From: Candidatus Palauibacter australiensis
GTDB taxonomy: Bacteria > Gemmatimonadota > Gemmatimonadetes > Palauibacterales > Palauibacteraceae
Assembly: GCA_026705295.1 (NCBI GenBank)
Contig: JAPPBA010000136.1
Location: forward strand, 961-64,960
Direction: 5' to 3'
DNA: 64,000 bases
Positions 8,479 to 20,966 of this stretch are shown here, in pieces (the stretch's first letter is position 1; every line of letters begins with the position of its first letter). The translations under genes were made by a program, and so were the position numbers. Under the pieces are notes generated by a model. It saw nothing but the letters and a program-made list of their open reading frames with translations. It was not told the origin of the DNA and ran no database searches.

Positions 8479-9645
8479 CTAGGACTTCGGGATCTCCTTG
8501 CGGGGATCCACGAAGGGCCGGGGCACCACCGTGGCGTTCCGCTCTCCGTTAGGCGTCGTCACGCTCAACCGTGAGCCCATCTCTCCGTAGGCGGTCGGTA
8601 CGAAGGCGTAACCGATGTTCTTCCCGAGACGCGGCGAATACACGGCGGACGTGACGAATCCGATCGCGCCGCCCTCCCCGTTCACGCCTCCGCCTGCGCG
8701 CACGGGCCAGCGGTGCATGTTCAAGTCGAGCGGCGCGCCGGAGATTTCGATGCCGGCGAGGAGCCGCCGGGGCCCCTCTTCGGCGATCCGGGCCAGCGCC
8801 TCGCGGCCGATGAAGTCGCCCTCCTGATCGAAGTCGACCTGCCATCCGAGCCCGACCTCCCAGGGGTTCGTGTCCAGCGTCATGTCGATGCCGTAGTTGA
8901 GGATGCCGGCTTCGATGCGGCGGATGTCCGACGGACCGGTGGGAGAGATGCCCAGGTCGCGGCCCGCCTCCAGCACGCGGTCCCAGAGTTCGACCCCCCG
9001 GCTTCCGTCCCTCAGGTAGATCTCGTAGCCGACCTCGCCGCTCCACCCCGTGCGAGTCACGACCACCGGGATCCCGTCCACATCCGTCTCCAGGAACCAG
9101 TAGTAGCGGAGCTTCAGGACGTCTTCCCCGAAGAGCCTGCGCACGACCTCCTTCGACTTCGGGCCCTGCACCTGCATGGGCGAGACGTCCGGCTCGCAGA
9201 TCTCGACGTCGAGGCCGGCGTTGAGCGCGACCCCCTTCGCGTACAGCAGCACGTCGCTGTCCGCCAGCGCGAGCCAGAAGTGGTTCTCGCCCAGGCGCAG
9301 CAGCACGGGGTCGTTCACGATGCCCCCGTCCTCGGCGCCGATGAGGACGTACTTGCCCTGCCCGACGGCGCACTTCGAGAGGTCGCGGGGCGTGAGCAGG
9401 TTCGTGAACTCGAAGGCGTCCGGCCCGGTGATCTCCACCTGCCGCTCGACGCTCACGTCCCACACCGTGACGCCGGTCAGGAGCTTCTCGTACTCCGCGT
9501 GCAGGTCGTCATAGCGCGTCGGGAGGAACATGTGGTTGTAGACCGTATAACTCCGGCATCCATCGCGGAGGGTGGCCTCGAAGTACGGCGAGCGGCGGAG
9601 CCGGGCCCCGCGCTGAATCAAGGCCATGTCAAAGGTCTCGGTCAT
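8479..9645 (-). CDS. aminomethyltransferase family protein (glycine cleavage T-protein / DmdA-like fold)
   Basis: 388 aa. N-terminus RRSPYFEATL...YNHMFLPTRY...VWDVSVERQVEITGPDA and overall length match the GcvT/aminomethyltransferase family. The exact substrate cannot be told from sequence by eye. Confidence 0.8.
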   Translation of the reverse strand: MTETFDMALIQRGARLRRSPYFEATLRDGCRSYTVYNHMFLPTRYDDLHAEYEKLLTGVTVWDVSVERQVEITGPDAFEFTNLLTPRDLSKCAVGQGKYVLIGAEDGGIVNDPVLLRLGENHFWLALADSDVLLYAKGVALNAGLDVEICEPDVSPMQVQGPKSKEVVRRLFGEDVLKLRYYWFLETDVDGIPVVVTRTGWSGEVGYEIYLRDGSRGVELWDRVLEAGRDLGISPTGPSDIRRIEAGILNYGIDMTLDTNPWEVGLGWQVDFDQEGDFIGREALARIAEEGPRRLLAGIEISGAPLDLNMHRWPVRAGGGVNGEGGAIGFVTSAVYSPRLGKNIGYAFVPTAYGEMGSRLSVTTPNGERNATVVPRPFVDPRKEIPKS

Positions 9646-9841: not shown

Positions 9842-10267
9842 TCACGCCGTATCCGTGCCGGTGTCGGGTGGTGCGATGCCGAGCACGGAACCCTCCAATC
9901 GGGCCACCGCCATGCGCGTCCTGGTCAGCTCCGCAACGACCGCGTCGATGCGGCCACCAAGTTCCTCGCGAACGCTCGCGATCTCCTCGCGCACGCTCGC
10001 GCGCAGGCTCCCGATCTCCTCGTTCACGCTCGCGCGCAGGCTCCCGATCTCCTCGCGCACGCTCCCGATCTCCTCGTTCACGCTCGCGCGCAAGGTCCCG
10101 ATCTCCCCGCGCACGCCCTGGATCTCGCTCCGAAGCTCGTCCCGCAGCTCGCCGCTCGTGCGGTCGATCTTCTCTTCGAGCTTGCGCGTACGGCCGGCCA
10201 CCGCCAATCCCACGACGACGATGGTCAACCATAGGGTTACGAGTCCGATGATCACGTACAGCTCCAT
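9842..10267 (-). CDS. membrane-anchored coiled-coil protein with 11/7-residue repeats
   Basis: Internal ATG at 10267 gives MELYVIIGLVTLWLTIVVVGLAVAG (N-terminal TM helix). It is followed by EIGTLRASVNEEIGSVREEIGSLRASVNEEIGSLRASVREEIASVREEL. The upstream 22 codons of ORF 9842..10333 look non-coding. Confidence 0.6.
   Translation of the reverse strand: MELYVIIGLVTLWLTIVVVGLAVAGRTRKLEEKIDRTSGELRDELRSEIQGVRGEIGTLRASVNEEIGSVREEIGSLRASVNEEIGSLRASVREEIASVREELGGRIDAVVAELTRTRMAVARLEGSVLGIAPPDTGTDTA
9980..10120 (-). repeat. in-frame tandem 33-nt / 21-nt DNA repeats inside the coiled-coil gene
   Basis: Units GATCTCCTCG(C/T)(G/T)CACGCTCGCGCGCAGGCTCCC at 9980-10012, 10013-10045 and 10067-10099 (33 nt). 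Truncated 21-nt units at 10046-10066 and 10100-10120. They encode EEIGSLRASVN (11 aa) and EEIGSVR (7 aa) units. Confidence 0.85.
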
Positions 10268-10378
10268 CCCTTGACGACTCCCCGTTGAAGGTCTCGCGTG
10301 GCCTGCGGCGCCCTGGCCGCGGCCTCCATCCACGCGAACCTCCGCCTCCCGATCAAGGTGGTATCAAGAGGCGATCCG

Positions 10379-11683
10379 TCAGGCGGGGATGCCGTGCTTC
10401 ACCGCGCGGGTCATCGCGTCGACGAAGCGGTCGAGTTCCTCGAGCGTCGTATAGGTGGACGGCGAGATGCGGAGCCCCGTGAACTCCGCGTGGTTGATGC
10501 CGACCGTGAAGATCCGGTGCTCGTTCCACAGCCAGTTGCGGAGCGCGCTCGTGTCGATGCCCTCGACCTGGACGTTGGCGATCCCGCACGCGAAGCCCGG
10601 CTTGAGGCTCGTGTTGAGCCGCACGCGGTCGTGCTCTAGGAGTTGCTCGGCCCAGTAGTTCCGCAGGTGGACGAGACGCGCCTCCTTGCGCTCGCCGCCG
10701 ACGAGCTGGTGGAAGGTGAGCGCTTCGCCGATGGCGAGGAAGTTGGCCTCCGGGTGGGTGCCGATCGCCTCGAACTTCCGGATGTCGTCGTCGCGGCTTT
10801 CCGCCGCGGCCTGCAGCGGCCAGATCTCGGGGATCTTCTCCCGCCTCACGTAGAGGAGTCCGGTGCCGACCGGGGCGTGCAGCCACTTGTGCAGGCTGAC
10901 GGCGTAGTTGTCGCAGTTCAACTCGGAGAGGGTAAAGTCGTGATGTGCAAGTGAATGTGCGCCGTCGACGAGGACGGGGATGCCGTAGCCGCGCGCCATC
11001 TCCACGACCTCGCGCACGGGGAGGATCTGTCCGGTGATGTTGATCATGTGGCACATCAGGATGAGCCGCGTGCGGTCGGTGATCTGCTCCTCGAACAGCC
11101 GCACGATTTCGGCTGGATCCTCGGCCGGGACCGGGATCTTGAACTGCTTCATGACGATCCCCTCGCGGCGCTCGCGCTGCTGGAAGGTCGTGATCATGCG
11201 CCCGTAGTCCTGGGTCGTCGTCACGACTTCGTCGCCGCGCTCCAGGTCATACCCGTTCTGGAGGATCTGGAGGCCCTCGGACGCGTTGCGCGTGATCGCG
11301 ACTTCCTCGGGGTCCACGTCCCACTGCCGGGCGAGCCGGGCGCGGACGCCCTCCCGCTGCGGCTCGAGGATCTGCCACCCGTTGTAGACCGGGATCTGGT
11401 TCGCGAAGTCGAGGTCCCGCTTCATCGCCTCGAGCACGTGGGCGGGCGTCGGGCTCACGCCTCCGTTGTTGAGGTTGACGAGGGAACGGTCGGTGGTGAA
11501 CGCCTTCTGGATCTCGATCCAGAACTCCTCGTCCCGCGCGATCTCCTCCGGGGAGCCGGGCGTGCGGGACAGGTCGCGGGCCGCCGCGACTGCGGTGCTC
11601 CACTTCGTGGGAACGACGGTCATGGCTCCGGCTGCAGCGGCGGAGCCCCCGAGGCGGGCGAGGAATCGTCGGCGGGTAGGCAT
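10379..11683 (-). CDS. Tat-exported class-V aminotransferase-fold PLP enzyme (cysteine desulfurase / isopenicillin-N epimerase-like)
   Basis: 434 aa. Twin-arginine signal MPTRRRFLARLGGSAAAAGA. PLP-lysine context AVSLHKWLHAPVGTGLLY typical of class V aminotransferases. AGGAGG lies 5 nt upstream of ATG 11683. Confidence 0.85.
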   Translation of the reverse strand: MPTRRRFLARLGGSAAAAGAMTVVPTKWSTAVAAARDLSRTPGSPEEIARDEEFWIEIQKAFTTDRSLVNLNNGGVSPTPAHVLEAMKRDLDFANQIPVYNGWQILEPQREGVRARLARQWDVDPEEVAITRNASEGLQILQNGYDLERGDEVVTTTQDYGRMITTFQQRERREGIVMKQFKIPVPAEDPAEIVRLFEEQITDRTRLILMCHMINITGQILPVREVVEMARGYGIPVLVDGAHSLAHHDFTLSELNCDNYAVSLHKWLHAPVGTGLLYVRREKIPEIWPLQAAAESRDDDIRKFEAIGTHPEANFLAIGEALTFHQLVGGERKEARLVHLRNYWAEQLLEHDRVRLNTSLKPGFACGIANVQVEGIDTSALRNWLWNEHRIFTVGINHAEFTGLRISPSTYTTLEELDRFVDAMTRAVKHGIPA

Positions 11684-11785
11684 GCGGCCTCCTGGCTGGT
11701 TCTTACCGGTCCGGCTGCTGCCAATTGGGCCGTTTTCGGCGTCGCGAGCAAGTCCGGCGCCCGCCGTGCCCCCGGCCTCGAGGCG

Positions 11786-12349
11786 TCAGTCCGGCGCCGT
11801 GATCATGGCGAGGATCGGGTCGATCGCCTCGTCCGCCAGCGATTCGAGTTCCGCCGCGGTGCGGTTCTGGATCGGGTGCGGGACCCAGACGATGCCGGGC
11901 TCGAAGCCGAGCGAGCGCGACTGGCTGCGCGCGGCCTCCTCGAACTCCGTCGTGACGACGAAGCAGCCGGGGATCCCGCGTTCGTCGAGGTCTCTGAGGT
12001 CGTGCAGACCGCACGACGTGCAGGACCCTCAGTCGGCTAAGGCCTGCACCACCACATCGGCCTCCGTGGCGATCCTCTGCAGCAACCCGGTCGGCGCCCG
12101 CCGCGCGTTCGTCGGCTTGTCCGTGCGGATCGTCGCGATGCCTCGCGCTTCGAGGCGCGCCTTCACGTGGTCGAGGAACTCGTCGCTGCGCTGCTTGCCG
12201 ATCCCCTGGAGCGCGACCACGCGTCCTTCGAGAGATGGGGGAGGCGTGCGTCGAGGGCGCATCTCGGAGGCGAGTTCGGAAGTGGGGTCGTGCAGGACGG
12301 TCGTTCGCGCCGCCGGGGTTGCCGGGCTCGCCGGAGTCGAAGCGGTCAT
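11786..12349 (-). CDS. predicted selenoprotein with U-G-S-C motif (in-frame UGA at 12031-12029 read as Sec), 187 aa
   Basis: ATG 12349 overlaps the upstream stop (ATGA). 106 codons (...ATEADVVVQALAD) run to TGA at 12029-12031. The same frame then stays open for 80 codons (GSCTSCGLHDLRDLDERGIPGCFVVTTEFEEAARSQSRSLGFEPGIVWVPHPIQNRTAAELESLADEAIDPILAMITAPD) to TGA 11786-11788. About 75 of those 80 codons end in G/C. No usable start codon exists for an independent gene. A SECIS-like hairpin lies 11 nt after the UGA. Confidence 0.7.
11996..12020 (-). promoter_or_regulatory. SECIS-like recoding hairpin downstream of the in-frame UGA
   Basis: mRNA reads UGA-GGGUCCUGCAC-GUCGUGC-GGUCU-GCACGAC. There is a perfect 7-bp stem (12017-12011 with 12005-11999) and loop GGUCU. 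It is extendable by A-U and G-C pairs across one C.C mismatch (12020/11996). The 11-nt spacing and GGUCUGCAC loop/stem resemble the E. coli fdhF SECIS as I recall it. Confidence 0.55.
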
Positions 12350-13797
12350 GTCTCGATCTCTCTGGTGATGGGGTGTGAGTGCTGCCAGGCGCGGCCGCCG
12401 GGCCAGCCGGCCAGGATGGCGGAGTACAGTCCGGCCGCGCCGCCGGCCCGGGCGAGGAGCAGTCCCCCGGGCGGGAACTTGGGCACCCGGCGGCGCGCCT
12501 CCGAGTCCGGCACGCCCTCCGCGAGGCCTCCCGCGCCGCGCGCCACCTCGCTCAGCGGCCGCGTCGTCGCCTCGAGCAGCGCCTCGGTGATCCGCGCCCG
12601 GCCCCAGCCCGCTTCCCGGTAGATGCCGTAATGCTCGGGGGAGAGGAGGAGCACCGCGTGCGCCCACTCGCAGATCTTCGGGTGGCAAACGGCCAGCAGG
12701 CACGCGGCCAGGGACGCGGTCAGCTCCTCCGGCGTGCGCGAGCGCTGGTCCATGATCCCCTGCACGCCCTCGCCCTGGAAGAGGGTGACGGCGCTGGCCC
12801 CGCGCGGGAGGCCGCGCGAAACCGCGAGCGGCTCCCACTCCTCGTCCGATTCGTCCTCCGCGAAACAGAACGTGTACTTGCTCGGCGCGCCGAAGGTCGC
12901 GCGGTCGATCTCGCCGGGGCGGCCGCCGCCCACGTTGCGCACGATCAGGTTGAGGGCGCGCCCGATGGTCGCGTTGGCGCGGTTTCCCTGGCCGAGGACG
13001 TTGAGTCCCGCGTTCATCCCGATGCGGCGGGCGACGGGGCCGTTGACGATGATGAGAGGAGACGTGAAGCACGTGCTGCACAGGATCCCGTGCAGCGTGA
13101 AGCCGGGGTCGAGCGCCGCCTCGAGCGCCGCGAGCAGGACCGGCATGTACTCCGGCTTGCAGCCGGCGAGCACGGCGTTGATCGCGACCTTTTCCACCGT
13201 GCACTCCGCGTAGTCCGGCGGCACGGCCCCCACGACCTCGTCCGCAGCCCGGGGCGTGCCCGCGAGCATGCGCAGGATCCGCTCCGGGGTCGGCGGAACG
13301 ACGGGCAGCCCGTCCGTCCACCCGCGCTCGAAGCATGCCTCCAGGGCGTCCGCATGCGGTTCCAGCGCCACCTGCCGCGCTTCGATGCCGGTCTCCCCGA
13401 AGCGCGCCCGCAGCCGCTCCGCCGCGCCGGGTTCGACGGACCGCGAACCGCAGCCCGGCCGGAGCTCGGGCAGTTCCGCGCCCAGATCCGGCGTCGACGT
13501 CAGCTCGCGCCACTCGGCCCGGTTCCAGCCCACCACGCGGCCCGCCTCCTTCCCGTCCTCGAAGCGCACGAGCGTGGGGACCGTCTCGATCCCGAGGCGG
13601 AAGGAGTGTTCGAGTTCCGTGTCGTCGACCACACCGGAAAGCGCCGCGGGAAAGTCCGGATCGTCCTGGCTGAAGACGGCGAGCCCTCCGGGACGGCTCG
13701 CGAGCCGTTCGAGCACGGGTTCGACCAGCCGGCACGTGGGACAGTCGCGCTTCACGACGGCCGCGAGCCCCTCCTGCGGGAGCGGAACGTGTTCCAT
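12346..13797 (-). CDS. thioredoxin-fold domain fused to a ~350-aa uncharacterised domain (partner of the selenoprotein)
   Basis: ORF 12346..13854. ATG 13797 gives MEHVPLPQEGLAAVVKRDCPTCRLVEP...IETVPTLVRFEDGKEAGRVVGW (CxxC plus cis-Pro VPT thioredoxin signature). An alternative GTG start lies at 13854. The C-terminal domain has ERGWTDGLPVVPPT and a second CxxC (LCSTCF). Its stop overlaps the selenoprotein start. Confidence 0.75.
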   Translation of the reverse strand: MEHVPLPQEGLAAVVKRDCPTCRLVEPVLERLASRPGGLAVFSQDDPDFPAALSGVVDDTELEHSFRLGIETVPTLVRFEDGKEAGRVVGWNRAEWRELTSTPDLGAELPELRPGCGSRSVEPGAAERLRARFGETGIEARQVALEPHADALEACFERGWTDGLPVVPPTPERILRMLAGTPRAADEVVGAVPPDYAECTVEKVAINAVLAGCKPEYMPVLLAALEAALDPGFTLHGILCSTCFTSPLIIVNGPVARRIGMNAGLNVLGQGNRANATIGRALNLIVRNVGGGRPGEIDRATFGAPSKYTFCFAEDESDEEWEPLAVSRGLPRGASAVTLFQGEGVQGIMDQRSRTPEELTASLAACLLAVCHPKICEWAHAVLLLSPEHYGIYREAGWGRARITEALLEATTRPLSEVARGAGGLAEGVPDSEARRRVPKFPPGGLLLARAGGAAGLYSAILAGWPGGRAWQHSHPITREIET

Positions 13798-13863
13798 GCC
13801 GCAACTTCTCGGCCGGACCCGGTGCGGGCAACGAGCACCACAAAGTGTCGTCACGACGACCGA

Positions 13864-13891
13864 AGTAGTTATGCGGCGTAGTAGTTATGCG
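13864..13891. promoter_or_regulatory. 12-bp direct repeat (AGTAGTTATGCG x2) in divergent promoter region
   Basis: AGTAGTTATGCG occurs at 13864-13875 and again at 13880-13891 (16-bp period). The patch is AT-richer and lies between the Trx-fusion/selenoprotein operon (-) and the LuxR gene (+, ATG 13963). Confidence 0.35.
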
Positions 13892-13962
13892 ACCAGCCGG
13901 ATTCCGGCCGTGGCGCAGCTTGTTCCACGCCGCGTTTTCTCTCCCAAAATTGGTGGTGTTCC

Positions 13963-15171
13963 GTGGACGCCCCATGGCCCATTCTGGGAGCCGCCGGAAT
14001 GGAGAGGACGGGAAGACGGAAAATTGATTCGCAGGACAGGTTCGAGCGCACCGTGGCGTCGTTGTACGGCGCCGCGCTGGACGATGGGGCGTGGGTCTCG
14101 GCGGCCGGGGCGATCAACGACCTGCTCCGGATCAGCGGCCACGGCCTGACGTTCGCGGATCCGTGCCAGACCGAGCCCGAGATCTTCTTCAACCGGTTCT
14201 TCGTCGGCGCGGAACACCGGATGGACCTGGAGCTCCTGTATTTTCGCGACTGCTACTGGCGCGATGAAGCGATTCCGCGGCTCTACGCACTCGGCGACGG
14301 CGATTTCGTCTACCGGTCGGAACTCTATACCGACCGGGAGAAGGAGACGTCTCCCGCGTACAACGAGTTCCGGCACATCGCGAAGTCGCAGGACGGGCTC
14401 TTCCTCGCGCTCGACGGGCTGGACGGCTGCGGCGTCGTCTGGTCCATCGGCGACTCCGTCGAACGGGGAGGCTGGGGGCAGGATCAGATCCGGGCCATCC
14501 GCCGACTCGCGCCTCATCTGCGCCAGTTCGCGCGCATCCGTCGTGCGCTGGCCGATGCCAGGGCGCTGGGCGCGTCGCTTGCCGAGCTACTGGAAAGCGG
14601 GCGGTCGGGGGTCATCCAGCTGGACCGCCGCGGACGCATCCTGGAGGCGAACGACCGGGCCCGGGCCGTCCTGGCGAAACGCGACGAGCTCCGCGACGAG
14701 GGCGGCGTGCTCGCGGTCGGAACTCAGACGGAGCACGCGGAACTGCAGCACCTGCTCGCGCGCGCGCTGCCCGTTTACGGCGCCCGGGGGGCCGGCGGCA
14801 CGATGAAGATCACGCGCCGCCGTGCCGGGACGCCGCTGGTCCTTGAAATCCACCCCGTCCAGAAGACGGGTACGGACGCTCGTTCGTGGGAGGTCGGCGC
14901 GCTGGCGCTGATCGTCGACCCGATCGCCCGTCCCCGGGTGGATCCCGGCTTGCCGGCGATGGCCTGGGGGTTGACGCCTGCGGAGAGCCGTGTGGCGGTG
15001 GCGGTGGCGACCGGCCAGACGCCAGCCGGCGTCGCGGCCGAACTGGGGTGCGCGGAGAGCATCGTGCGCACACACCTGAAGCGGGTCTACCGCAAGCTCG
15101 GAGTCCGCAGGCAGACCGAACTCGTGCGCAGGGTTCTGTCGCTCGAAGCCCTGCGGGGATCCTTCCGCTAG
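13963..15171 (+). CDS. LuxR-family helix-turn-helix transcriptional regulator
   Basis: 402 aa. The C-terminal LTPAESRVAVAVATGQTPAGVAAELGCAESIVRTHLKRVYRKLGVRRQTELV matches the LuxR/GerE-type HTH. The N-terminal sensor region is not recognisable. Confidence 0.8.
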   Translation: MDAPWPILGAAGMERTGRRKIDSQDRFERTVASLYGAALDDGAWVSAAGAINDLLRISGHGLTFADPCQTEPEIFFNRFFVGAEHRMDLELLYFRDCYWRDEAIPRLYALGDGDFVYRSELYTDREKETSPAYNEFRHIAKSQDGLFLALDGLDGCGVVWSIGDSVERGGWGQDQIRAIRRLAPHLRQFARIRRALADARALGASLAELLESGRSGVIQLDRRGRILEANDRARAVLAKRDELRDEGGVLAVGTQTEHAELQHLLARALPVYGARGAGGTMKITRRRAGTPLVLEIHPVQKTGTDARSWEVGALALIVDPIARPRVDPGLPAMAWGLTPAESRVAVAVATGQTPAGVAAELGCAESIVRTHLKRVYRKLGVRRQTELVRRVLSLEALRGSFR

Positions 15172-15359
15172 TCGGCAAGCCGCCGCAGGGGCTTCGTCAG
15201 CCTCCGAGCGGGATCACGACCCTATGGCAGAGAGTCGATCCGCCATCGGAGCGTGTCCGGGCACTGCGCGGGCGTTGACCGGGTGGGGGACTGAACGGAG
15301 ATTTGTGCAGGCGTGTTGTGAAGGGATGTGAAGGTGATATGCAGGGTTTGTTGCGCCGC

Positions 15360-15389
15360 GATGGACCTGCGATGGACCCGTGATGGACC
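15360..15389. promoter_or_regulatory. three direct GATGGACC repeats at 11-bp spacing upstream of the amidohydrolase operon
   Basis: GATGGACC at 15360-15367, 15371-15378 and 15382-15389, which is 23-52 nt upstream of ATG 15412. Upstream there is also TGTGAAGG x2 at 15317-15324 and 15327-15334. Confidence 0.3.
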
Positions 15390-15411
15390 CTCGGGGAAGG
15401 ATGTATCTCTC

Positions 15412-17121
15412 ATGAACCGCACCGCACTCGCGCGCCGGCTGGCGGGCGGGGTCGTTCCGGGGCTGCTCCTCGCGTCGCTGTCGGGCCTTGCCGCTCCGGC
15501 GCCCGCCGACGCGCAGTACATGCCGAGCCAGGCCCCGGTGCCTCCCCCGTTCTTCGCCCTCCAGAACGCGCGCATCGTGACCGGCACGGGCGCCGTGATC
15601 GAGAACGGCACCGTCGTCATCGCCAACGGCCTCATCGAGGCGGTCGGAGCCGATGTCGAAGTCCCCGGCGACGCATGGCTGATCGACGTCTCGGGCCTGA
15701 CCGTCTACCCCGGCCTGTTCGACGGGCTGTCCCGGATCGGGATGGCCTCGCAGGTGGGGAATCCGGGCGGCGGGGGAGGCAACCCCTTCGCCGCGTTTGT
15801 CGAGCAGGCGAACCAGCCCCGCACCGTGGGGCCCGAGGACCGTCCGGCGACGAACTCCTGGGTCAACGCGGCCGACATGCTGGACCCGGATTCCGACGAC
15901 ATCGAGACGTGGCGGAGCGGCGGGTTCACGAACGCGCTCGTGGCGCCCGATGACGGGATCGTGACGGGGCAGGGCGTCGTGGTGAACCTCGCGGGCGACG
16001 AGCAGGAGATGGTCGTGAAGGCGCCCGCCGCTCTCCGCGTGACGATGAGCGGAGCCGGAGGGTTCCGGAGCTTCCCGGGTTCCCTCATGGGCGTCATCGC
16101 CTACATCCGGCAACTGTACCTGGACGCGGATCACAGCCAGCAGTACGAGGCGCGCTACACGGCCAACCCGAGCGGCCAGCCGCGGCCCACCTACGACCGG
16201 GCGCTCGGTCCGATCCAGGACGCGATCGCCGCGGGGTGGCCGACCGTGATGCCGGCGAACGAGGTGCGGCAGATCCGGCGCGCGATCAAGCTCGGGCGCG
16301 ACACCGGCGCGCGGCCGGTCCTCCAGGGCGCGCACGAGGCGTACGGACTCGCCGGCGAGATCGCGGCGGCCGGCGCCCAGGTGCTCGTGAACGCCGATTG
16401 GCCGGAGCGGAACCGCGATGCGGATCCGGAAGCCGACGAATCGCTCTCGTCGCTGAAGCGCCGCGCCTATGCGCCGACGACGCCGGCCCGGCTCGAGGAG
16501 GCGGGCGTCGAATGGGCCTTCTACAGCGGCTCGGCCGGGAGCCCCCGCGCCATGATGGAGAAGGTGCGGACGGCGATCGAGAACGGACTCTCCGAGGAGG
16601 CGGCGCTGGAGGCGCTCACCGTCGCGCCCGCCCGCATCTACGGCGTGGACGCGATGCTCGGCTCCGTCGAGGCGGGCAAGATCGCGAACCTCGTCGTGAC
16701 CGACGGCCCGCTGTTCGACGAGGACACCGACATCCGCATGGTGTTCGTCGACGGCCACAGGTTCGAGGAGGAAGCACCGGAGCCGCGGCCGACGGAGCCC
16801 CCGGCGGTCGACATGAACGGCACCTGGCTCCTCTCCCTGAACAACGACTCGCAGGAGGCGACGGCTGAACTCGAGGTGTCGGAGGACGGCACGATTTCCG
16901 GCGTCATCCAGGGCGAGCGCGGGGAGCAGCAGATCACCGACGGCTGGGTGAGCGGCAACGAGTTCAGCATTACGGCCTCGGCCACGATGGGGCCGGGCAT
17001 GGACGTGGAGATCGTCTACACCGGCACCGTCGAGGGCGATGCGATCGAGGGGAACGCTTCCTTCGGAGGCATGCGCAACATGGACTTCACGGGCACGAGG
17101 CCCGGGGGAGGTGTCCGATGA
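15412..17121 (+). CDS. amidohydrolase-family protein, secreted (HxH motif degenerate)
   Basis: Internal ATG 15412 gives MNRTALARRLAGGVVPGLLLASLSGLAAPAPADAQ (signal peptide). Homologous in layout to the next two genes (IVIANGLIEAVG...GLTVYPGLFDGLSRIG), but the canonical metal-binding H-x-H is replaced by G-L-S. Confidence 0.75.
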   Translation: MNRTALARRLAGGVVPGLLLASLSGLAAPAPADAQYMPSQAPVPPPFFALQNARIVTGTGAVIENGTVVIANGLIEAVGADVEVPGDAWLIDVSGLTVYPGLFDGLSRIGMASQVGNPGGGGGNPFAAFVEQANQPRTVGPEDRPATNSWVNAADMLDPDSDDIETWRSGGFTNALVAPDDGIVTGQGVVVNLAGDEQEMVVKAPAALRVTMSGAGGFRSFPGSLMGVIAYIRQLYLDADHSQQYEARYTANPSGQPRPTYDRALGPIQDAIAAGWPTVMPANEVRQIRRAIKLGRDTGARPVLQGAHEAYGLAGEIAAAGAQVLVNADWPERNRDADPEADESLSSLKRRAYAPTTPARLEEAGVEWAFYSGSAGSPRAMMEKVRTAIENGLSEEAALEALTVAPARIYGVDAMLGSVEAGKIANLVVTDGPLFDEDTDIRMVFVDGHRFEEEAPEPRPTEPPAVDMNGTWLLSLNNDSQEATAELEVSEDGTISGVIQGERGEQQITDGWVSGNEFSITASATMGPGMDVEIVYTGTVEGDAIEGNASFGGMRNMDFTGTRPGGGVR

Positions 17122-18539
17122 GACATCCGATGAGAGATCCGAGGACACGGGTTGCCGGCCGGGTCGGCGCCGGGTGCCTGGCGCTCGGTCTCGCGCTCGG
17201 GATTCCGGGCGGGGCCGCGGCTCAGGAGCAGCCCATCCTGATCACGGGCGCGACGATTCTCACCGCGGCGGAAGCCGGGAGGATCGAGGACGGCGCCGTC
17301 CTGTTCCAGAACGGGCGCATCGTCGCCGTCGGGCCGGCCTCCGAGGTGGAGGCCCCCTCCGACGCGGTGGTCATCGACGGGACGGGCAAGTACATCACGC
17401 CCGGGATCGTTGACGCCCACTCCCACATCGCGGCCGACGCGATCAACGAGGGGGCGGTCTCCGTCTCCTCCATGGTGTCGATCCACGACGTGATCGACCC
17501 GACGGACGTCGCGATCTACCGCGAGGCGGCGGGCGGCACGACGACTTCGCACGTCATGCACGGGAGCGCGAACCCGATCGGCGGCAACAACGCCGTCATC
17601 AAGCACCGCTGGGGCGCGGACGCGCAGGGTCTCCTCTTCCAGGGCGCCCCGCCCACGATCAAGTTCGCGCTCGGCGAGAACCCGAAGCGGGCCGGGAGCC
17701 CCAACCTACCCGGCCACGAGGCGCGCTATCCCGCCTCCCGCATGGGGGTGATGGACGTGGTCCGGCAGGCCTTCATCGAGGCCAGCGAGTACAAGGCCGA
17801 GTGGGACACCTACCGGGCGCGCGTGGCCGATGGCGACCGCAGTGCGATCCCGCCACGCCGCAACCTGACCATGGATCCGCTGGTTGAAGTGCTCGAAGGC
17901 ACGCGCTACGTGCACGCGCACAGCTACCGCGCGGACGAGATCCTGCAGCTCATGCGGGTGGCCGAGGAGTTCGGCTTCCGCATCCACGTGTTCCAGCACG
18001 TGCTCGAAGGCTACCGCGTGGCCGACGAGATGGCCGAGCACGGGGCCCACGCCTCCACCTTCTCCGACTGGTGGGCGTACAAGATGGAGGCCTACGAGGC
18101 GATTCCGCACAACGCGGCGATCATGACGCAGCGCGGCGTCAACGTCTCCATCAACTCCGACAGCGGAGAAGAGGGACGGCACCTCAACCAGGAAGCCGCC
18201 AAGACGATGAAGTGGGGCGGTCTGAGCGAGGCCGAGGCCCTCGCCACCGTGACGATCAACGCGGCCTTCCAGCTGCTGATCGACGACCGCGTGGGTTCGC
18301 TGGAGGCGGGGAAGGACGCGGACATCGTCCTGTGGGAGAACTATCCGCTCTCCTCCTACGCCAGGGTCCGGACGACGTATATCGACGGCGAGGTGGTGTT
18401 CGACATCGACGCGGACCTGGCGATGCGGGCCGAGATCGAGGCCGAGAAGGCGGAGTTGAGAGAGATGCTCGGCGAGGCCGACGAGGACGACTCCGATAAC
18501 GAGCGCGAGCCGGATCGGCGGCCGGGAGGTGAACGATGA
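17118..18539 (+). CDS. amidohydrolase-family metallohydrolase (canonical HxH present)
   Basis: 473 aa with a signal peptide. GKYITPGIVDAHSHIA is the classical amidohydrolase metal-binding motif. The start overlaps the upstream stop (ATGA at 17118-17121). Confidence 0.9.
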   Translation: MRHPMRDPRTRVAGRVGAGCLALGLALGIPGGAAAQEQPILITGATILTAAEAGRIEDGAVLFQNGRIVAVGPASEVEAPSDAVVIDGTGKYITPGIVDAHSHIAADAINEGAVSVSSMVSIHDVIDPTDVAIYREAAGGTTTSHVMHGSANPIGGNNAVIKHRWGADAQGLLFQGAPPTIKFALGENPKRAGSPNLPGHEARYPASRMGVMDVVRQAFIEASEYKAEWDTYRARVADGDRSAIPPRRNLTMDPLVEVLEGTRYVHAHSYRADEILQLMRVAEEFGFRIHVFQHVLEGYRVADEMAEHGAHASTFSDWWAYKMEAYEAIPHNAAIMTQRGVNVSINSDSGEEGRHLNQEAAKTMKWGGLSEAEALATVTINAAFQLLIDDRVGSLEAGKDADIVLWENYPLSSYARVRTTYIDGEVVFDIDADLAMRAEIEAEKAELREMLGEADEDDSDNEREPDRRPGGER

Positions 18540-19900
18540 TGCGCATGGTGAAGTCGATAGTCGCGGCGGCGGCAGTCCTCGGCACCGTCGGGTTTGCCCT
18601 GCCGGCTGAGGCCGTCGCGCAGGACGGCGGCACGTTCGCGGTACAGGGAGCCACGATTCACACCGTCGCCGACGGCGTGATCGAGGGCGGCACGATCGTC
18701 ATCCGGGACGGCCGCATCATCGCGGTCGGACAGGACGTCGACATCCCGGCGGACGCCGAGATCATCGACGGGGAGGGGAAGCACGTCTTTCCCGGCATGA
18801 TCGATTCGTTCAGCTCGCTCGGGCTCACGGAGGTCGGGGCCGTCGCGGTGACGAACGACGCGAGCGAGCTGGGGCGCTGGAACCCGCATCTCAACGCGCA
18901 CACGGCGATCCACCCCGCCAGCGAGCACATCCCGGTCGCGCGCGCGAACGGGATCACGCACTCGCTGGTCGCGCCCGGCGGCGGCGGCCGCTTCGGCGGC
19001 GGCGGAGGTTCGGGCATCCAGGGTCAGGCCACGCTCGTCCACCTCGACGGCTGGACGGTGGAGGAGATGGAGATCGAGAAGACGGCGGCCATGATCATCG
19101 GCTGGCCCACGCTGTCGACGGGTTTCCGCGCCTTCGCCGGCTTCGGCCGCCCGGCCGGGGGCCGCTCCTTCCAGCGGGCGCAGGAGCGCTTCGACGAGGA
19201 AGTGGCGGAGATGGACTCGTGGTTCGTCGCCGCCGAGCACTACCGGCAGGCCGTGGCGTCCGGATCGAGCCGCGTGCCCCGCAACATCCAGCTCGAGCAC
19301 CTGTCGCGCGTCCTCGACCGGGGGATGAAGGTCATCGTGCGGGCGAACGGATGGCGCGAGATCGAGTCGGCCATCGAGTTCGCGGAGAAGTGGAACCTGG
19401 ACCTCACCATCGCGGGCGGGAACGGGGCGCGCGAGATCGCCGGCACGCTCGCCGAGAAGAACATCCCCGTGATCCTGGGGCCGGTGCAGCGGCTGCCGCA
19501 GGGCGAGGACACCGCGTACGACGATCCGAACACGCTGCCCGGCGTGCTGCACGAGGCGGGGGTCGAGATCGCGTTCGCGACCTTCAACTCGTCCGATGCG
19601 CGGACCCTGCCCTACGAGGCCGCGAACTCCGTGTCGTGGGGGCTCTCGAAGGAGGCGGCGCTGGAAGCGGTGACGCTGGGCCCGGCGCGCGTGCTGGGCG
19701 TGGACGACCGGCTTGGGTCGCTGGAAGTCGGGAAGGTGGGGAACCTGATCGTGACCGACGGGGATCCGCTCGAGATCACGACCCGGATCGAGTGGGTGTT
19801 CATCAAGGGCGTGCCGTCCGACCTGGACAACAAGCACGATAGCCTGTGGGAGGAATACAGGAACCGCCCGGCGCGGCGCGTGACCACGACGACGACCTAG
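18536..19900 (+). CDS. amidohydrolase-family protein, secreted (HxH motif degenerate)
   Basis: 454 aa with a signal peptide. GKHVFPGMIDSFSSLG sits at the position of the HxH motif. ATGA overlap with the preceding gene at 18536-18539. Confidence 0.8.
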   Translation: MMRMVKSIVAAAAVLGTVGFALPAEAVAQDGGTFAVQGATIHTVADGVIEGGTIVIRDGRIIAVGQDVDIPADAEIIDGEGKHVFPGMIDSFSSLGLTEVGAVAVTNDASELGRWNPHLNAHTAIHPASEHIPVARANGITHSLVAPGGGGRFGGGGGSGIQGQATLVHLDGWTVEEMEIEKTAAMIIGWPTLSTGFRAFAGFGRPAGGRSFQRAQERFDEEVAEMDSWFVAAEHYRQAVASGSSRVPRNIQLEHLSRVLDRGMKVIVRANGWREIESAIEFAEKWNLDLTIAGGNGAREIAGTLAEKNIPVILGPVQRLPQGEDTAYDDPNTLPGVLHEAGVEIAFATFNSSDARTLPYEAANSVSWGLSKEAALEAVTLGPARVLGVDDRLGSLEVGKVGNLIVTDGDPLEITTRIEWVFIKGVPSDLDNKHDSLWEEYRNRPARRVTTTTT

Positions 19901-19903
19901 CAG

Positions 19904-20341
19904 CTACTCGTCGGATTCGGGACGGCGCCGCTGCCTCTTCGTGAGGGAGCGGCGCCGTTTCTTTTCCAGCCGTTGTTCGCGGGAGGCCCGGGTGGGCTTC
20001 GTCGGGCGGCGGGGCCGCGGCGTGTGCTCCCGCTCCCGGAGGGTGGCGCGGAGCCGGTCCAGGGCGCGGGCCCGGTTGCGGTGCTGGCTGCGGGACTCGC
20101 GCGCGGTCACGACGATGCCGGTGGGACGGTGCGTGAGCCGGACGGCCGACTCCGTCTTGTTCTGGTGCTGGCCGCCCGGACCACCGGCCCGGAACGTCTC
20201 GACGGTGCACTCGGCGAGCAGTTCTTCGTCGCTGCGTGACTCCGCGGCGCTCACGGCTTCCTCCCGTCGGATCGCTGGCCGGTTCCCGCCGGCTCCGCGC
20301 GCCGACACGAAAACCCTTCGATCAGCGTAACTTGTCCACAT
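19904..20341 (-). CDS. arfB: alternative ribosome-rescue factor ArfB / class-I release-factor-domain peptidyl-tRNA hydrolase
   Basis: GGQ motif context [41 protein letters not shown] plus a basic C-terminal tail ([14 protein letters not shown]). ATG 20341 would overlap the divergent gene start. An alternative GTG at 20254 gives a more typical ~116 aa. Confidence 0.75.
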
Positions 20342-20966
20342 GAACGAGTCGACGCACAGCCCGGAGACGCCGGACCTGCCCGAGACGTCCGAAACGCCCG
20401 AGACATGGGGGACGCCGGAGACGGCGGGCTCCTGGGACCCGGCGGACCCGCCGAACCGGGAGGCCGGCAGCATTGCCGACGGGGTGCGCCGTTCGCTCGA
20501 TCCGAAGGTGATCCCGCTGCAGCGCACGATCGGCGCCATCGTCACGGGTTGCGTCTCGCTCCCGCTCGGCGCCGCGGTCGGCGTGCTGTGGGCGGCCTTT
20601 GGACCCCCTCCGGTCGTATGGGGCCCGATGCTGGGAGGTTGGGCCGCGGTCACCGGCGCGCTGGGCTGGTGGCTGCAGCGGTGGCCCGTCCTTCACCACC
20701 GCTACGCGTCCTACGCCGTGCACCCGGACGGGATCGAGATCCGCAAGGGCGTGATCTGGCGGCAGGCGATCAGCGTGGCGCGCTCCCGCGTCCAGCACAC
20801 CGACGTGTCGCAGGGTCCGCTCGAGCGGAAGTACGGCCTCGGGACGCTGGGCGTCTACACCGCGGGCACCGACCACGCCAAGGTCTCCCTCGACGGCCTG
20901 GAGCACGACACGGCGCTCCGCATCCGGGATCATCTCCTGCCGCCCGCGGGGGACGATGCCGTCTGA
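20340..20966 (+). CDS. YdbS-like membrane protein with bacterial PH (bPH_2) domain
   Basis: 208 aa. Low-complexity PET-rich N-terminus, two TM helices, then [52 protein letters not shown], typical of bPH_2/DUF304. Confidence 0.7.

What the first reader, a model, noticed from the sequence alone, without database searches (positions are those of the whole stretch)
10379..15171. Candidate selenium/thiol redox module: Trx-fusion protein, UGSC selenoprotein and Tat-exported class-V PLP enzyme, with divergent LuxR regulator
The 483-aa gene (12346..13797) has an N-terminal thioredoxin fold (CPTC plus VPT cis-Pro). It also has a ~350-aa C-terminal domain I cannot assign, containing GWTDGLPVVPPT and a second CxxC (CSTC). 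Its stop overlaps the selenoprotein start (ATGA at 12346-12349), implying co-translation and probably a complex or redox relay (CxxC, CxxC, UxxCxxC). About 100 nt downstream on the same strand, behind a perfect AGGAGG, lies a class-V aminotransferase-fold enzyme. That family includes cysteine desulfurases and selenocysteine lyases. Unexpectedly it carries a twin-arginine export signal (RRRFL), so it should act outside the cytoplasm. A LuxR-type regulator is transcribed divergently. I know of no characterised pathway with this composition.
Basis: inference. Interest (0 to 1): 0.7.

Follow-up and report, generated by a model that had tools for sequence, protein, structure and literature searches.

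The report
Orphan selenoprotein UGSC with its conserved partner
The window holds a real selenocysteine gene (UGSC family) overlapping a thioredoxin-fused gene of unknown fold; the two travel together or are fused in about 140 genomes from ten or more phyla, so they look like an uncharacterised two-part redox enzyme, while the neighbouring PLP enzyme and LuxR regulator are local neighbours only.

Summary
All four genes are at the stated coordinates. The UGSC gene (11786-12349, minus strand) has an in-frame TGA at 12029-12031. A conserved SECIS-like hairpin follows it, and the protein stays conserved past the TGA.

The 483-aa protein is a Trx-fold domain (CPTC), an invariant linker Cys116 (PGCGS) and a ~345-aa orphan domain I call domX.
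- A UGSC gene lies in 79/80 and 63/79 loci fetched with the partner protein as bait, mostly directly downstream.
- These loci span about ten bacterial phyla, and a haloarchaeal plasmid also carries the pair.
- Natural fusions exist in both orders.
- No third gene is conserved.

The PLP gene follows the pair only in Palauibacter-like genomes and its product is Tat-exported. Its closest solved relative is periplasmic PvdN. The LuxR gene recurs in one relative. The 'second CxxC' (CSTC) is not conserved.

New here:
- Cys116 is a TGA codon (Sec) in 8 Burkholderiales-type orthologues.
- The UGSC model is flavodoxin-like, not Trx-like.
- domX matches no Pfam, NCBIfam or PDB entry.

Best reading: a cytoplasmic, thioredoxin-driven two-subunit selenoenzyme with unknown substrate. 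A 2008 paper noted a 'UGSC/Unknown_1' fusion, so the link is partly anticipated.

The parts
12346..13797 (-). Gene for the 483-aa partner protein: Trx-fold domain + linker Cys + orphan domain 'domX'
   Evidence: ORF and translation. About 8000 homologues, named 'thioredoxin family protein' or 'hypothetical'. AF2 model with pLDDT 88.9. The start is supported by homologues, with M1 nearly invariant.
13483..13797 (-). Trx-fold domain (about residues 1-105) with CPTC (C19, C22) and a cis-Pro loop VPT (73-75)
   Evidence: C19, C22, V73, P74 and T75 are invariant. Foldseek to thioredoxins gives probability 1.0 and TMt 0.5-0.65. TIGR01068 scores only 21.9 bits against a cut-off of 96.8.
13450..13452 (-). 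Codon of linker Cys116 (motif RPG-C-GS)
   Evidence: Cys in 73 and TGA in 8 of 81 orthologues. PGC is invariant in all 42 Trx-domX proteins of the second locus set. The TGA forms share a downstream hairpin.
12349..13380 (-). domX, an orphan domain of about 345 aa (residues 140-483) with universal D162-G163-L-P165, A211-G212-C213, N275, G279-R280, C311, E314, H389
   Evidence: 5674 clusters at 50% identity. Residue conservation. No Pfam, NCBIfam or PDB sequence match, even with profiles. Only weak Foldseek matches.
11786..12349 (-). UGSC-family selenoprotein gene (187 aa; start overlaps the partner's stop as ATGA)
   Evidence: Translation. Pfam PF24696 E 5.2e-33; NCBIfam NF041046 120.8 bits. 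Immediately downstream of the partner gene in most related loci.
12029..12031 (-). In-frame TGA = selenocysteine 107 in D-U-G-S-C110-T-S-C113
   Evidence: TGA in 74 of 79 and Cys codons in 5 of 79 set-1 loci. TGA in 136 of 141 overall.
11988..12028 (-). SECIS-like hairpin (core stem 12017-11999, loop GGUCU) starting 3 nt after the UGA
   Evidence: Fold. Present in all TGA forms and absent in the Cys forms. The 5-bp core is paired in 85 of 85 sequences, with compensatory changes; 78% of cells pair against 25-45% when slid.
10379..11683 (-). Neighbour, not part of the conserved unit: Tat-signal class-V PLP-fold enzyme (PvdN-like)
   Evidence: Aminotran_5 E 7.7e-40. The top NCBIfam hit is PvdN, far below its cut-off. 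PDB PvdN 5i90 E 7.5e-36. Co-located only in L001-L004 and L013.
13963..15171 (+). Neighbour, not part of the conserved unit: divergent LuxR/GerE-type regulator
   Evidence: GerE HTH at residues 337-390. A homologue is present only in L013.

Best explanation
The real unit is a two-gene cassette, not four genes.

Components
- Gene 1 encodes a Trx-fold domain (C19-P-T-C22), a short linker with an invariant Cys116, and an orphan ~345-aa domain (domX).
- Cys116 is selenocysteine in some Burkholderiales-type orthologues.
- domX carries a universal set of polar and thiol residues: D162, C213, N275, R280, C311, E314, H389.
- Gene 2 is translationally coupled through an ATGA overlap. It encodes the UGSC selenoprotein, a small flavodoxin-like alpha/beta protein.
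- Sec107 sits at the start of a helix, in the motif D-U-G-S-C110-x-x-C113.

Proposed mechanism (inferred)
1. The two proteins form a cytoplasmic complex.
2. domX binds the still unknown substrate.
3. Sec107 is the attacking or reducing nucleophile and ends up in a selenenyl-sulfide with Cys110.
4. The built-in Trx module (C19/C22, via the linker Cys116) re-reduces that bond with electrons from the cellular thioredoxin reductase and NADPH system.

Shown and inferred
- Shown computationally: Sec decoding, gene coupling, fusion, residue conservation and the folds.
- Inferred: complex formation, direction of electron flow and reductase chemistry.

The PLP enzyme and the LuxR regulator are lineage-specific neighbours.
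For: Sec decoding
- In-frame TGA with Sec/Cys alternation and a covarying hairpin.

Pairing
- A UGSC gene lies in the locus (within 300 nt downstream in most) in 79/80 loci seeded with the 483-aa protein.
- The same holds in 63/79 loci seeded with stand-alone domX, including 24 domX genes that lack a Trx domain.
- The loci come from Gemmatimonadota, Acidobacteriota, Alpha-, Beta- and Gammaproteobacteria, Chloroflexota, Actinomycetota, Methylomirabilota, Binatia, Eremiobacterota and Entotheonella. A haloarchaeal plasmid also carries the pair.
- Even a 23%-identical UGSC relative sits next to a domX gene.

Fusions
- 18 UGSC-domX and 4 domX-UGSC among 150 cluster representatives.
- 28 have a Trx-fold domain in front of domX; three sampled fusions (not all among these 28) score as AhpC/Redoxin in Pfam.

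Redox role
- Invariant CxxC and PGC.
- Cys116 is replaced by TGA in 8 loci.
- trxB lies directly after the pair on a Roseovarius plasmid.
- selA or selB lies next to the pair in about 12 loci.

Folds and context
- The Trx domain matches thioredoxins with probability 1.0.
- The UGSC model (pLDDT 92.8) has five beta-alpha units and matches flavodoxin, TIR and DHQase folds.
- No third gene is conserved: the most frequent neighbour occurs in 17 of 159 loci.
Against: - No experiment on any member was found in the papers I searched; the substrate and even the reaction class are unknown.
- I could not model the complex, so contact between Sec107, Cys116 and Cys213/Cys311 is untested.
- Some fused proteins (P0273, P0322) have lost Sec/Cys at the UGSC site. 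The UGSC domain can therefore persist without redox chemistry.
- 16 of 79 stand-alone domX loci show no UGSC gene within 5 kb.
- The conserved C213/C311/H389/E314 set could equally be a metal site.
- The hairpin lies in highly conserved coding sequence, so part of its conservation is due to the protein.
Confidence: 0.55

Rival explanations
1. One reading: Trx-fusion protein, UGSC, the Tat-exported PLP enzyme (as a Sec or Cys lyase) and the LuxR regulator form one selenium/thiol pathway.
For: - Same strand, with only a 102-nt gap and no terminator-like site between the UGSC and PLP genes.
- The PLP fold family includes cysteine desulfurases and Sec lyases.
- Synteny is kept in four or five Palauibacter-like genomes.
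Against: - PLP is absent from 75 of 80 related loci. In L004 it is separated from the pair by four opposite-strand genes.
- LuxR is present in 1 of 80 loci.
- The Tat signal places the PLP enzyme in the periplasm, while the pair is cytoplasmic.
- Scores fall far below the cut-offs for SufS (121.5/475), SclA (54/525) and all other desulfurase models. The best relative is PvdN.
Confidence: 0.04
2. A Prd/Grd-like reductive bond-cleaving selenoenzyme. domX plays the role of PrdA/GrdE by binding the substrate covalently, possibly through a modified Cys213. UGSC plays the role of selenoprotein B (PrdB/GrdB). Sec attacks a substrate carbon and cleaves a C-N, C-S or C-X bond. Cys110 resolves the selenoether or Se-S bond, and the fused Trx supplies the electrons.
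For: - Same logic as PrdA/PrdB: a larger Cys-bearing subunit plus a small UxxC selenoprotein encoded side by side (mechanism as described in PMC11229817).
- A UxxCxxC-type motif.
- A dedicated dithiol reductant domain.
- An invariant A-G-C213 in domX.
Against: - No detectable homology: neither UGSC nor domX hits Pfam GRDB (PF07355) or the Gly_reductase family at E up to 10.
- There is no evidence of self-cleavage or a pyruvoyl group.
- The hosts are mostly aerobic heterotrophs, not Stickland fermenters.
- My recollection that GrdB has UxxCxxC comes from memory and was not tested here.
Confidence: 0.15
3. Not a reductase. The pair is a metal-centre enzyme, or a sulfur/selenium/metal-trafficking pair, in which Sec107/Cys110/Cys113 and domX C213/C311/H389/E314 ligate a metal or cluster, or carry a persulfide or perselenide.
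For: - U/C-x-x-C-x-x-C resembles a metal or cluster-binding motif and is kept in about 58 of 63 set-2 orthologues.
- domX has a Cys2-His-Glu/Asp type conserved set.
- The weak Foldseek hits of domX are to Fe-S class I fumarate hydratases (probability 0.63).
- DsrE, TusA and cysteine desulfurase genes lie upstream of the pair in Paracoccus.
Against: - The third Cys of the motif is lost in several members.
- C311 is only 82% conserved in the broad representative alignment (about 95% in the second locus set).
- Recurrent fusion to CxxC Trx/Redoxin domains and the Sec/Cys alternation at residue 116 are hallmarks of thiol-disulfide chemistry.
- The Foldseek matches have TM about 0.2.
Confidence: 0.15
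4. The TGA is an ordinary stop: two separate small genes, and no selenoprotein.
For: - Gene callers split or truncate the ORF in most databases.
- No tRNA-Sec, selA, selB or selD was found inside the 64-kb window.
Against: - Protein conservation continues in frame across the TGA in about 140 loci.
- Cys codons replace the TGA in 5 loci.
- The hairpin is present only in the TGA forms.
- The family is an accepted selenoprotein family (PMC2398784; NF041046).
Confidence: 0.01

Closest known systems
UGSC-containing selenoprotein family (Zhang & Gladyshev; Pfam PF24696, NCBIfam NF041046), including the 'UGSC/Unknown_1' fusion noted in the GOS selenoproteome paper (PMC2398784)
   Same: The window gene is a typical member: a D-U-G-S-C motif, a Sec/Cys alternation and a hairpin after the UGA. 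The 2008 paper already saw UGSC fused to an unnamed conserved domain. That domain is very probably domX.
   Different: - The papers I found treat UGSC as an orphan 'likely Trx-like fold' protein of unknown function (PMC2398784, PMC13188914).
- Here the model is flavodoxin-like.
- The partner is shown to be near-obligatory, usually carries its own Trx domain, and can itself be a selenoprotein at Cys116.
- I could not see the Unknown_1 sequence because the figure is held as an image. The identity with domX is therefore inferred.
D-proline reductase PrdA/PrdB and glycine/sarcosine/betaine reductase GrdE/GrdB (selenoprotein B systems)
   Same: - A two-subunit design: a larger catalytic subunit plus a small UxxC selenoprotein encoded next to it.
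- Sec acts as the nucleophile, and the enzyme is regenerated by a dithiol or Trx-type reductant.
   Different: - No sequence homology is detectable to PF07355 or to the PrdA/GrdE family.
- There is no evidence for a pyruvoyl group.
- The hosts are mainly aerobes.
- The reductant domain is fused in cis.
- The cassette has no GrdA/GrdC/PrdC-type partners nearby.
Thioredoxin-fused thiol enzymes (for example Trx-MsrA/MsrB fusions such as PilB; from general knowledge)
   Same: A Trx-fold CxxC domain is fused to the enzyme it recycles. This gives a self-contained reductase that depends only on thioredoxin reductase.
   Different: The catalytic domain here is an orphan with no known relatives, and a separate selenoprotein subunit is needed.
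PvdN, the periplasmic PLP enzyme of pyoverdine tailoring (closest relative of the neighbouring PLP gene only)
   Same: Class-V PLP fold with a twin-arginine signal. It is the best PDB hit (5i90, E 7.5e-36) and the best NCBIfam hit.
   Different: The score of 141.7 is far below the PvdN cut-off of 650. No pyoverdine genes were seen nearby. The PLP enzyme is therefore a PvdN-like periplasmic enzyme of unknown substrate, not PvdN.

Membership tests
UGSC family (seleno)protein (PF24696 / NF041046) | Profile match above the curated threshold | tested here: met
   Pfam scores 115 bits against a cut-off of 25. NCBIfam NF041046 scores 120.8 bits, just under its equivalog cut-off of 125.
UGSC family (seleno)protein (PF24696 / NF041046) | Sec (TGA) or Cys in the U-G-S-C motif | tested here: met
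   D-TGA-G-S-C at 12029-12031. TGA in 136 of 141 orthologues and Cys codons in the rest.
UGSC family (seleno)protein (PF24696 / NF041046) | Bacterial SECIS-like stem-loop shortly after the UGA | tested here: met
   Hairpin GUCGUGC-GGUCU-GCACGAC 11 nt after the UGA. No Rfam family matched.
Thioredoxin (canonical, TIGR01068) | CxxC active site, cis-Pro loop and Trx fold | tested here: met
   CPTC and VPT are invariant. Foldseek probability 1.0 to many thioredoxins.
Thioredoxin (canonical, TIGR01068) | Score above the curated equivalog cut-off | tested here: not met
   21.9 bits against a cut-off of 96.8. It is a Trx-fold domain, not a canonical thioredoxin.
Selenoprotein B reductases (GrdB/PrdB, PF07355) with GrdE/PrdA partner | Homology of the small selenoprotein to PF07355 | tested here: not met
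   No GRDB hit at E up to 10 for the window protein or for 23 family members. No PDB sequence hit. A fold comparison with PrdB/GrdB was not possible, because no such structure appeared in the PDB search.
Selenoprotein B reductases (GrdB/PrdB, PF07355) with GrdE/PrdA partner | Partner is a self-cleaving proprotein carrying a pyruvoyl group | not testable with these tools
   domX has no Pfam hit at all. Cleavage and the cofactor need protein chemistry.
Cysteine desulfurase / selenocysteine lyase (SufS, IscS, CsdA, SclA): the PLP neighbour | Score above the curated cut-offs | tested here: not met
   SufS 121.5/475.1, IscS 63.5/548, CsdA 69.8/607, SclA 54/525. Only the general Aminotran_5 fold is met.
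Cysteine desulfurase / selenocysteine lyase (SufS, IscS, CsdA, SclA): the PLP neighbour | Cytoplasmic location | tested here: not met
   The N-terminal T-R-R-R-F-L twin-arginine motif followed by a hydrophobic stretch predicts export.
PvdN (NF051467): the PLP neighbour | Score above the equivalog cut-off | tested here: not met
   141.7 bits against a cut-off of 650. The hit shares the fold and the Tat signal only.
LuxR/GerE-type regulator | C-terminal GerE helix-turn-helix | tested here: met
   PF00196 E 9.2e-10 over residues 337-390. The N-terminal 330 residues are unassigned.

The most novel reading that the evidence does not exclude
domX plus UGSC is a previously unrecognised, very widespread two-subunit selenoenzyme, with thousands of sequence clusters in ten or more bacterial phyla and in haloarchaea. 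Its catalytic subunit has an orphan fold. It brings its own thioredoxin and, in some Burkholderiales-type genomes, a second selenocysteine. It would carry out a Trx-driven reductive reaction in aerobes, functionally analogous to the Prd/Grd selenoprotein-B systems of anaerobes. This would give one of the most abundant aquatic orphan selenoproteins a function.
Probability: 0.3. Interest if true: 0.8.

Novelty: new variant of a known kind. Interest (0 to 1): 0.6.

Why it matters
UGSC has been listed since 2008 among the most abundant selenoprotein families in ocean and, especially, non-marine aquatic metagenomes. A 2026 review still says that the functions of such predicted prokaryotic selenoproteins remain largely uncharacterised (PMC2398784, PMC13188914).

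Several results here make the question experimentally tractable:
- UGSC almost never occurs without one specific partner domain.
- The partner usually carries a dedicated thioredoxin module and a Cys that can be Sec.
- The pair is present in cultivable organisms: Paracoccus, Roseovarius, Xanthobacter, Reyranella, Noviherbaspirillum and Natrinema.

In about ten genomes selA sits next to the pair. This could mean the pair is one reason those genomes keep Sec machinery, although I did not test that.

The results also correct the assumed Trx-like fold of UGSC. They define a large unnamed domain family (domX) that deserves a Pfam entry.

Tried and rejected
- Identifying domX by sequence. I ran Pfam and NCBIfam scans at E up to 10 on the window protein, on 10 distant relatives and on 35 stand-alone domX proteins. 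I also searched PDB with a single sequence and with two profiles. Nothing matched beyond the Trx domain.
- Identifying domX by fold. Foldseek of the full-length model against PDB returned mostly thioredoxins. The only non-Trx hits were class I fumarate hydratase (probability 0.63, TM about 0.2) and Toblerone-fold amidohydrolases (probability 0.35-0.41). These are too weak to use.
- Linking UGSC to GrdB/PrdB. There was no Pfam GRDB hit for any of 23 members and no PDB sequence hit. No GrdB/PrdB sequence was available for a profile-profile test, and the supplement of PMC11229817 is not held.
- Looking for a third conserved gene. I clustered all neighbours in 159 loci. Nothing exceeded 17 loci. 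ComA (phosphosulfolactate synthase) appeared near two distant members but nowhere else. A family III CoA-transferase recurs in 14 loci of many lineages, but at variable distance and orientation, which is a weak lead only.
- trxB adjacency. It is clear in one Roseovarius plasmid and not general.
- Rfam and tRNA scans of the window found nothing.
- The promoter and terminator scan of 10200-14200 was uninformative.
- A literature search for the domX motifs as text strings gave no papers.

Full report
**What is in the sequence**

On the minus strand, three genes follow each other.
- A 483-aa ORF lies at 12346-13797. Its stop overlaps the next ATG as ATGA at 12346-12349.
- A 187-codon ORF lies at 11786-12349 and reads ...VVQALAD-TGA-GSCTSCGLHD... 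The in-frame TGA is at 12029-12031.
- After a 102-nt gap and an AGGAGG comes a 434-aa ORF at 10379-11683. It begins MPTRRRFLARLGG.

A 402-aa gene is divergent at 13963-15171.

- The middle ORF is a UGSC-family protein. Pfam PF24696 gives E 5.2e-33, and NCBIfam NF041046 gives 120.8 bits against a cut-off of 125.
- The 434-aa protein has the class-V PLP fold (Aminotran_5, E 7.7e-40).
- The divergent gene ends in a GerE/LuxR helix-turn-helix.
- The 483-aa protein has no Pfam hit. It gives only a weak thioredoxin signal at residues 19-93.

The closest relatives of the 483-aa protein are 88-93% identical proteins of Candidatus Palauibacter (Gemmatimonadota).

**The selenocysteine is real**

I used the 483-aa protein as bait in one-genome-per-species contigs and obtained 80 loci.
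- In 79 of them, tblastn with the UGSC protein aligns in one piece straight through the stop codon.
- The codon at the U position is TGA in 74 loci and TGC or TGT in 5.

A hairpin follows the TGA.
- In the window it is GUCGUGC-GGUCU-GCACGAC, 11 nt after the UGA, with an extendable lower stem.
- It is present in every TGA form and absent from the five Cys forms.
- The Cys forms also read S-T-H instead of S-L-H at the loop codons.

I then aligned 85 distinct sequences from both locus sets.
- The five core pairs are formed in 85 of 85 sequences.
- Compensatory changes occur; for example, pair 18-30 is GC in 51, GU in 25 and AU in 9.
- 78% of all cells pair, against 25-45% when the 3' partners are slid.

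The coding constraint inflates this signal. The contrast with the Cys forms does not depend on that constraint. No tRNA-Sec or selA lies in the window itself.

**The pair is the conserved unit; the PLP and LuxR genes are not**

- The PLP gene recurs only in L001-L004 and L013, which are Palauibacter-like. In L004 it lies 4 kb away, behind four opposite-strand genes.
- The LuxR gene recurs only in L013. It is missing from relatives that are 89-93% identical.
- Clustering of all neighbours in 159 loci found no third gene in more than 17 loci.
- The PLP enzyme's best relatives are PvdN. It is the top NCBIfam hit at 141.7 bits, far below the cut-off of 650, and the top PDB hit (5i90, E 7.5e-36).
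- PvdN is listed among periplasmic pyoverdine-maturation enzymes in PMC9305348 (found). A twin-arginine signal on this fold therefore has a precedent.
- All desulfurase and Sec-lyase models score far below their cut-offs.
- The pair has no signal peptide. The PLP enzyme and the pair should therefore work in different compartments.

**Anatomy of the partner protein**

I aligned 81 orthologues.
- Invariant: C19 and C22 (CPTC), the VPT loop, C116 in R-P-G-C-G-S, and C311.
- Nearly invariant: C199 and C213.
C243 is Cys in 24 of 81.

In eight Burkholderiales-type loci (L034, L037, L038, L041, L074, L075, L077, L078) the codon of Cys116 is TGA.
- All eight share the hairpin CUCGAGCC-CGGGGU-GGCCGAG about 13 nt downstream.
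- A Sec/Cys alternation marks a catalytic redox residue. The partner protein is therefore itself a selenoprotein in some organisms.
- The PGC motif is invariant in all 42 Trx-bearing proteins of a second, more diverse locus set.

An AlphaFold2 model (pLDDT 88.9, pTM 0.86) shows a Trx fold at residues 10-100, followed by a large alpha/beta domain.
- Foldseek against PDB returns thioredoxins with probability 1.0.
- For the rest of the protein it returns only weak matches: class I fumarate hydratase at probability 0.63 and TM about 0.2, and Toblerone-fold hydrolases.

**The C-terminal domain (domX) is a large orphan family tied to UGSC**

An exhaustive phmmer search with residues 120-483 found 5674 clusters at 50% identity. 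Of these, 1401 are below 1e-30. The best 150 representatives have these architectures:

| Architecture | Representatives |
|---|---|
| domX alone | 90 |
| Trx-fold domain + domX | 28 |
| UGSC-domX fusion | 18 |
| domX-UGSC fusion | 4 |
| Tandem domX | about 10 |

- Three Redoxin-type fusions that I sampled score as AhpC/Redoxin in Pfam.
- Many of the fusions are cut by gene callers exactly at the Sec codon.
- Every source name is 'hypothetical protein'.
- Profiles of domX hit nothing in PDB, and scans of its members hit nothing in Pfam or NCBIfam.

Across the family the universal residues are D162-G-L-P165, A211-G-C213, N275, G279-R280, C311 (82-95%), E314 and H389. They are the same whether or not a Trx domain or a UGSC neighbour is present.

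A second scan seeded with stand-alone domX gave 79 further loci.
- 63 of them carry a UGSC gene. It is immediately downstream in most, and a few lie further away or upstream.
- 24 of these have no Trx domain in front of domX.
- Over all loci, 141 hold both genes, 135 have them within 300 nt, and 136 have TGA.
- A UGSC relative only 23% identical to the reference also sits beside a domX gene, and next to selB.

Annotated records show the same pattern.
- Natrinema zhouii plasmid (an archaeon): 'UGSC family (seleno)protein' overlaps a 'hypothetical protein' that is domX.
- Paracoccus ferrooxidans pFER4: a UGSC gene split at its TGA, then domX, with selB nearby.
- Roseovarius plasmid: LysR regulator, domX, UGSC, trxB.

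selA is adjacent to the pair in ten loci.

**UGSC fold**

I modelled a Cys-form homologue (P0121, 60% identical; pLDDT 92.8).
- The model has five beta-alpha units.
- It matches TIR, flavodoxin, SsuE and type II dehydroquinase folds at TM 0.4-0.5.
- It is therefore flavodoxin-like, not the Trx-like fold suggested in 2008 (PMC2398784).
- The Sec sits right after strand 3, at the start of helix 3.
- K41, D95 and H147-P148 (P0121 numbering) are invariant across the 23 aligned homologues.
- U-G-S-C is the core motif. The third Cys (U-x-x-C-x-x-C) is kept in most orthologues but not all.

**How it most likely works**

Shown computationally:
- Sec decoding.
- Translational overlap of the two genes.
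- Near-obligate adjacency across phyla, and fusion in both orders.
- Conserved CxxC, PGC(U) and D-U-G-S-C motifs.
- The fold assignments.

Inferred:
1. The two proteins form a cytoplasmic complex.
2. domX provides the substrate pocket (C213, C311, H389, E314, D162, R280).
3. Sec107 of UGSC is the nucleophile and is trapped as a selenenyl-sulfide with Cys110.
4. The fused Trx module, acting through Cys116, re-reduces that bond at the expense of thioredoxin reductase and NADPH.

The substrate is unknown.
- Neighbours are typical catabolic paralogues: alpha/beta hydrolases, luciferase-like oxidoreductases, SDRs, CoA-transferases and TauD-like enzymes. They are inconsistent between lineages.
- The closest mechanistic analogue is PrdA/PrdB. 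There, Sec of PrdB attacks the substrate held by PrdA (PMC11229817).
- Homology to the Prd/Grd families was tested by HMM and not found.
- A metal-site or trafficking role cannot be excluded.

**Novelty**

- The UGSC family, and a 'UGSC/Unknown_1' fusion, were reported in 2008.
- Pfam, NCBIfam and PGAP already name UGSC.
- I found no paper that describes the partner family, its Trx fusion, its own Sec site or the conserved operon.
- The window's instance is an ordinary member of this uncharacterised system.
- The system itself is a promising, testable orphan.

Noticed in passing
L034, L037, L038, L041, L074, L075, L077, L078 (codon aligned to window 13450-13452): In these Burkholderiales-type genomes the partner protein has an in-frame TGA in place of Cys116 (PG-U-GS). 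A shared hairpin lies about 13 nt downstream. The 'thioredoxin family protein' is therefore itself a probable selenoprotein that gene callers split.
   Followed up: partly
L012, L057, L065, L070, L071, L076, L079, L080, L141, L144; also L160 and L163: selA lies next to the domX/UGSC pair in ten loci of several lineages. selB lies nearby in two more. This could mean the pair is one reason these genomes keep Sec machinery.
   Followed up: partly
P0273, P0322 (UGSC-domX fusion proteins): Some fused proteins have lost both Sec and Cys at the UGSC site (GWSG, EIGG). The UGSC domain can therefore persist as a non-redox partner.
   Followed up: no
P0196, P0204, P0217, P0219, P0224, P0234: Proteins of about 710-740 aa consist of two tandem domX copies, without a Trx or UGSC domain.
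   Followed up: no
L112, L116, L125, L129, L148, L159 (Poribacteria) and L083, L087, L089-L091, L093 (Methylomirabilota): These are stand-alone domX genes with no UGSC gene within 5 kb. In several Poribacteria loci the domX match is split between two frames near HMM position 275-295. This could be a frameshift, an insertion or recoding and was not resolved.
   Followed up: no
L152, L156 (Dehalococcoidia): These loci hold two UGSC and/or two domX copies. One UGSC match in L156 contains two in-frame TGA codons.
   Followed up: no
L023, L056, L103, L105, L107, L109, L115, L122, L124, L145, L151, L158, L162, L164: A CaiB/BaiF family III CoA-transferase gene lies within a few kb of the pair in 14 loci, from Proteobacteria, Chloroflexota and a haloarchaeon. 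Distance and orientation vary. It may be chance, because the family has many paralogues, or a weak hint at an acyl-CoA or carboxylate substrate.
   Followed up: partly
window 9845-10333 (-): A 163-aa protein with an N-terminal hydrophobic segment and tandem 11-residue repeats (EEIGSLRASVN...). It gives weak apolipoprotein-like hits. It is syntenic with the PLP gene and a GcvT-like gene (8482-9645) in Palauibacter relatives.
   Followed up: no
window 15328-19897 (+) and 19907-20653 (-): Three consecutive amidohydrolase-family genes (597, 473 and 454 aa; the first two have signal-like N-termini), followed by a 249-aa RF-1-domain protein on the opposite strand.
   Followed up: no
L161 and L162: A distant UGSC-like gene without domX sits among cupin, cyclase and phosphosulfolactate synthase (ComA) genes. 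A ComA gene also lies 2 kb from the Natrinema pair. It was not seen in any of the other ~160 loci.
   Followed up: partly
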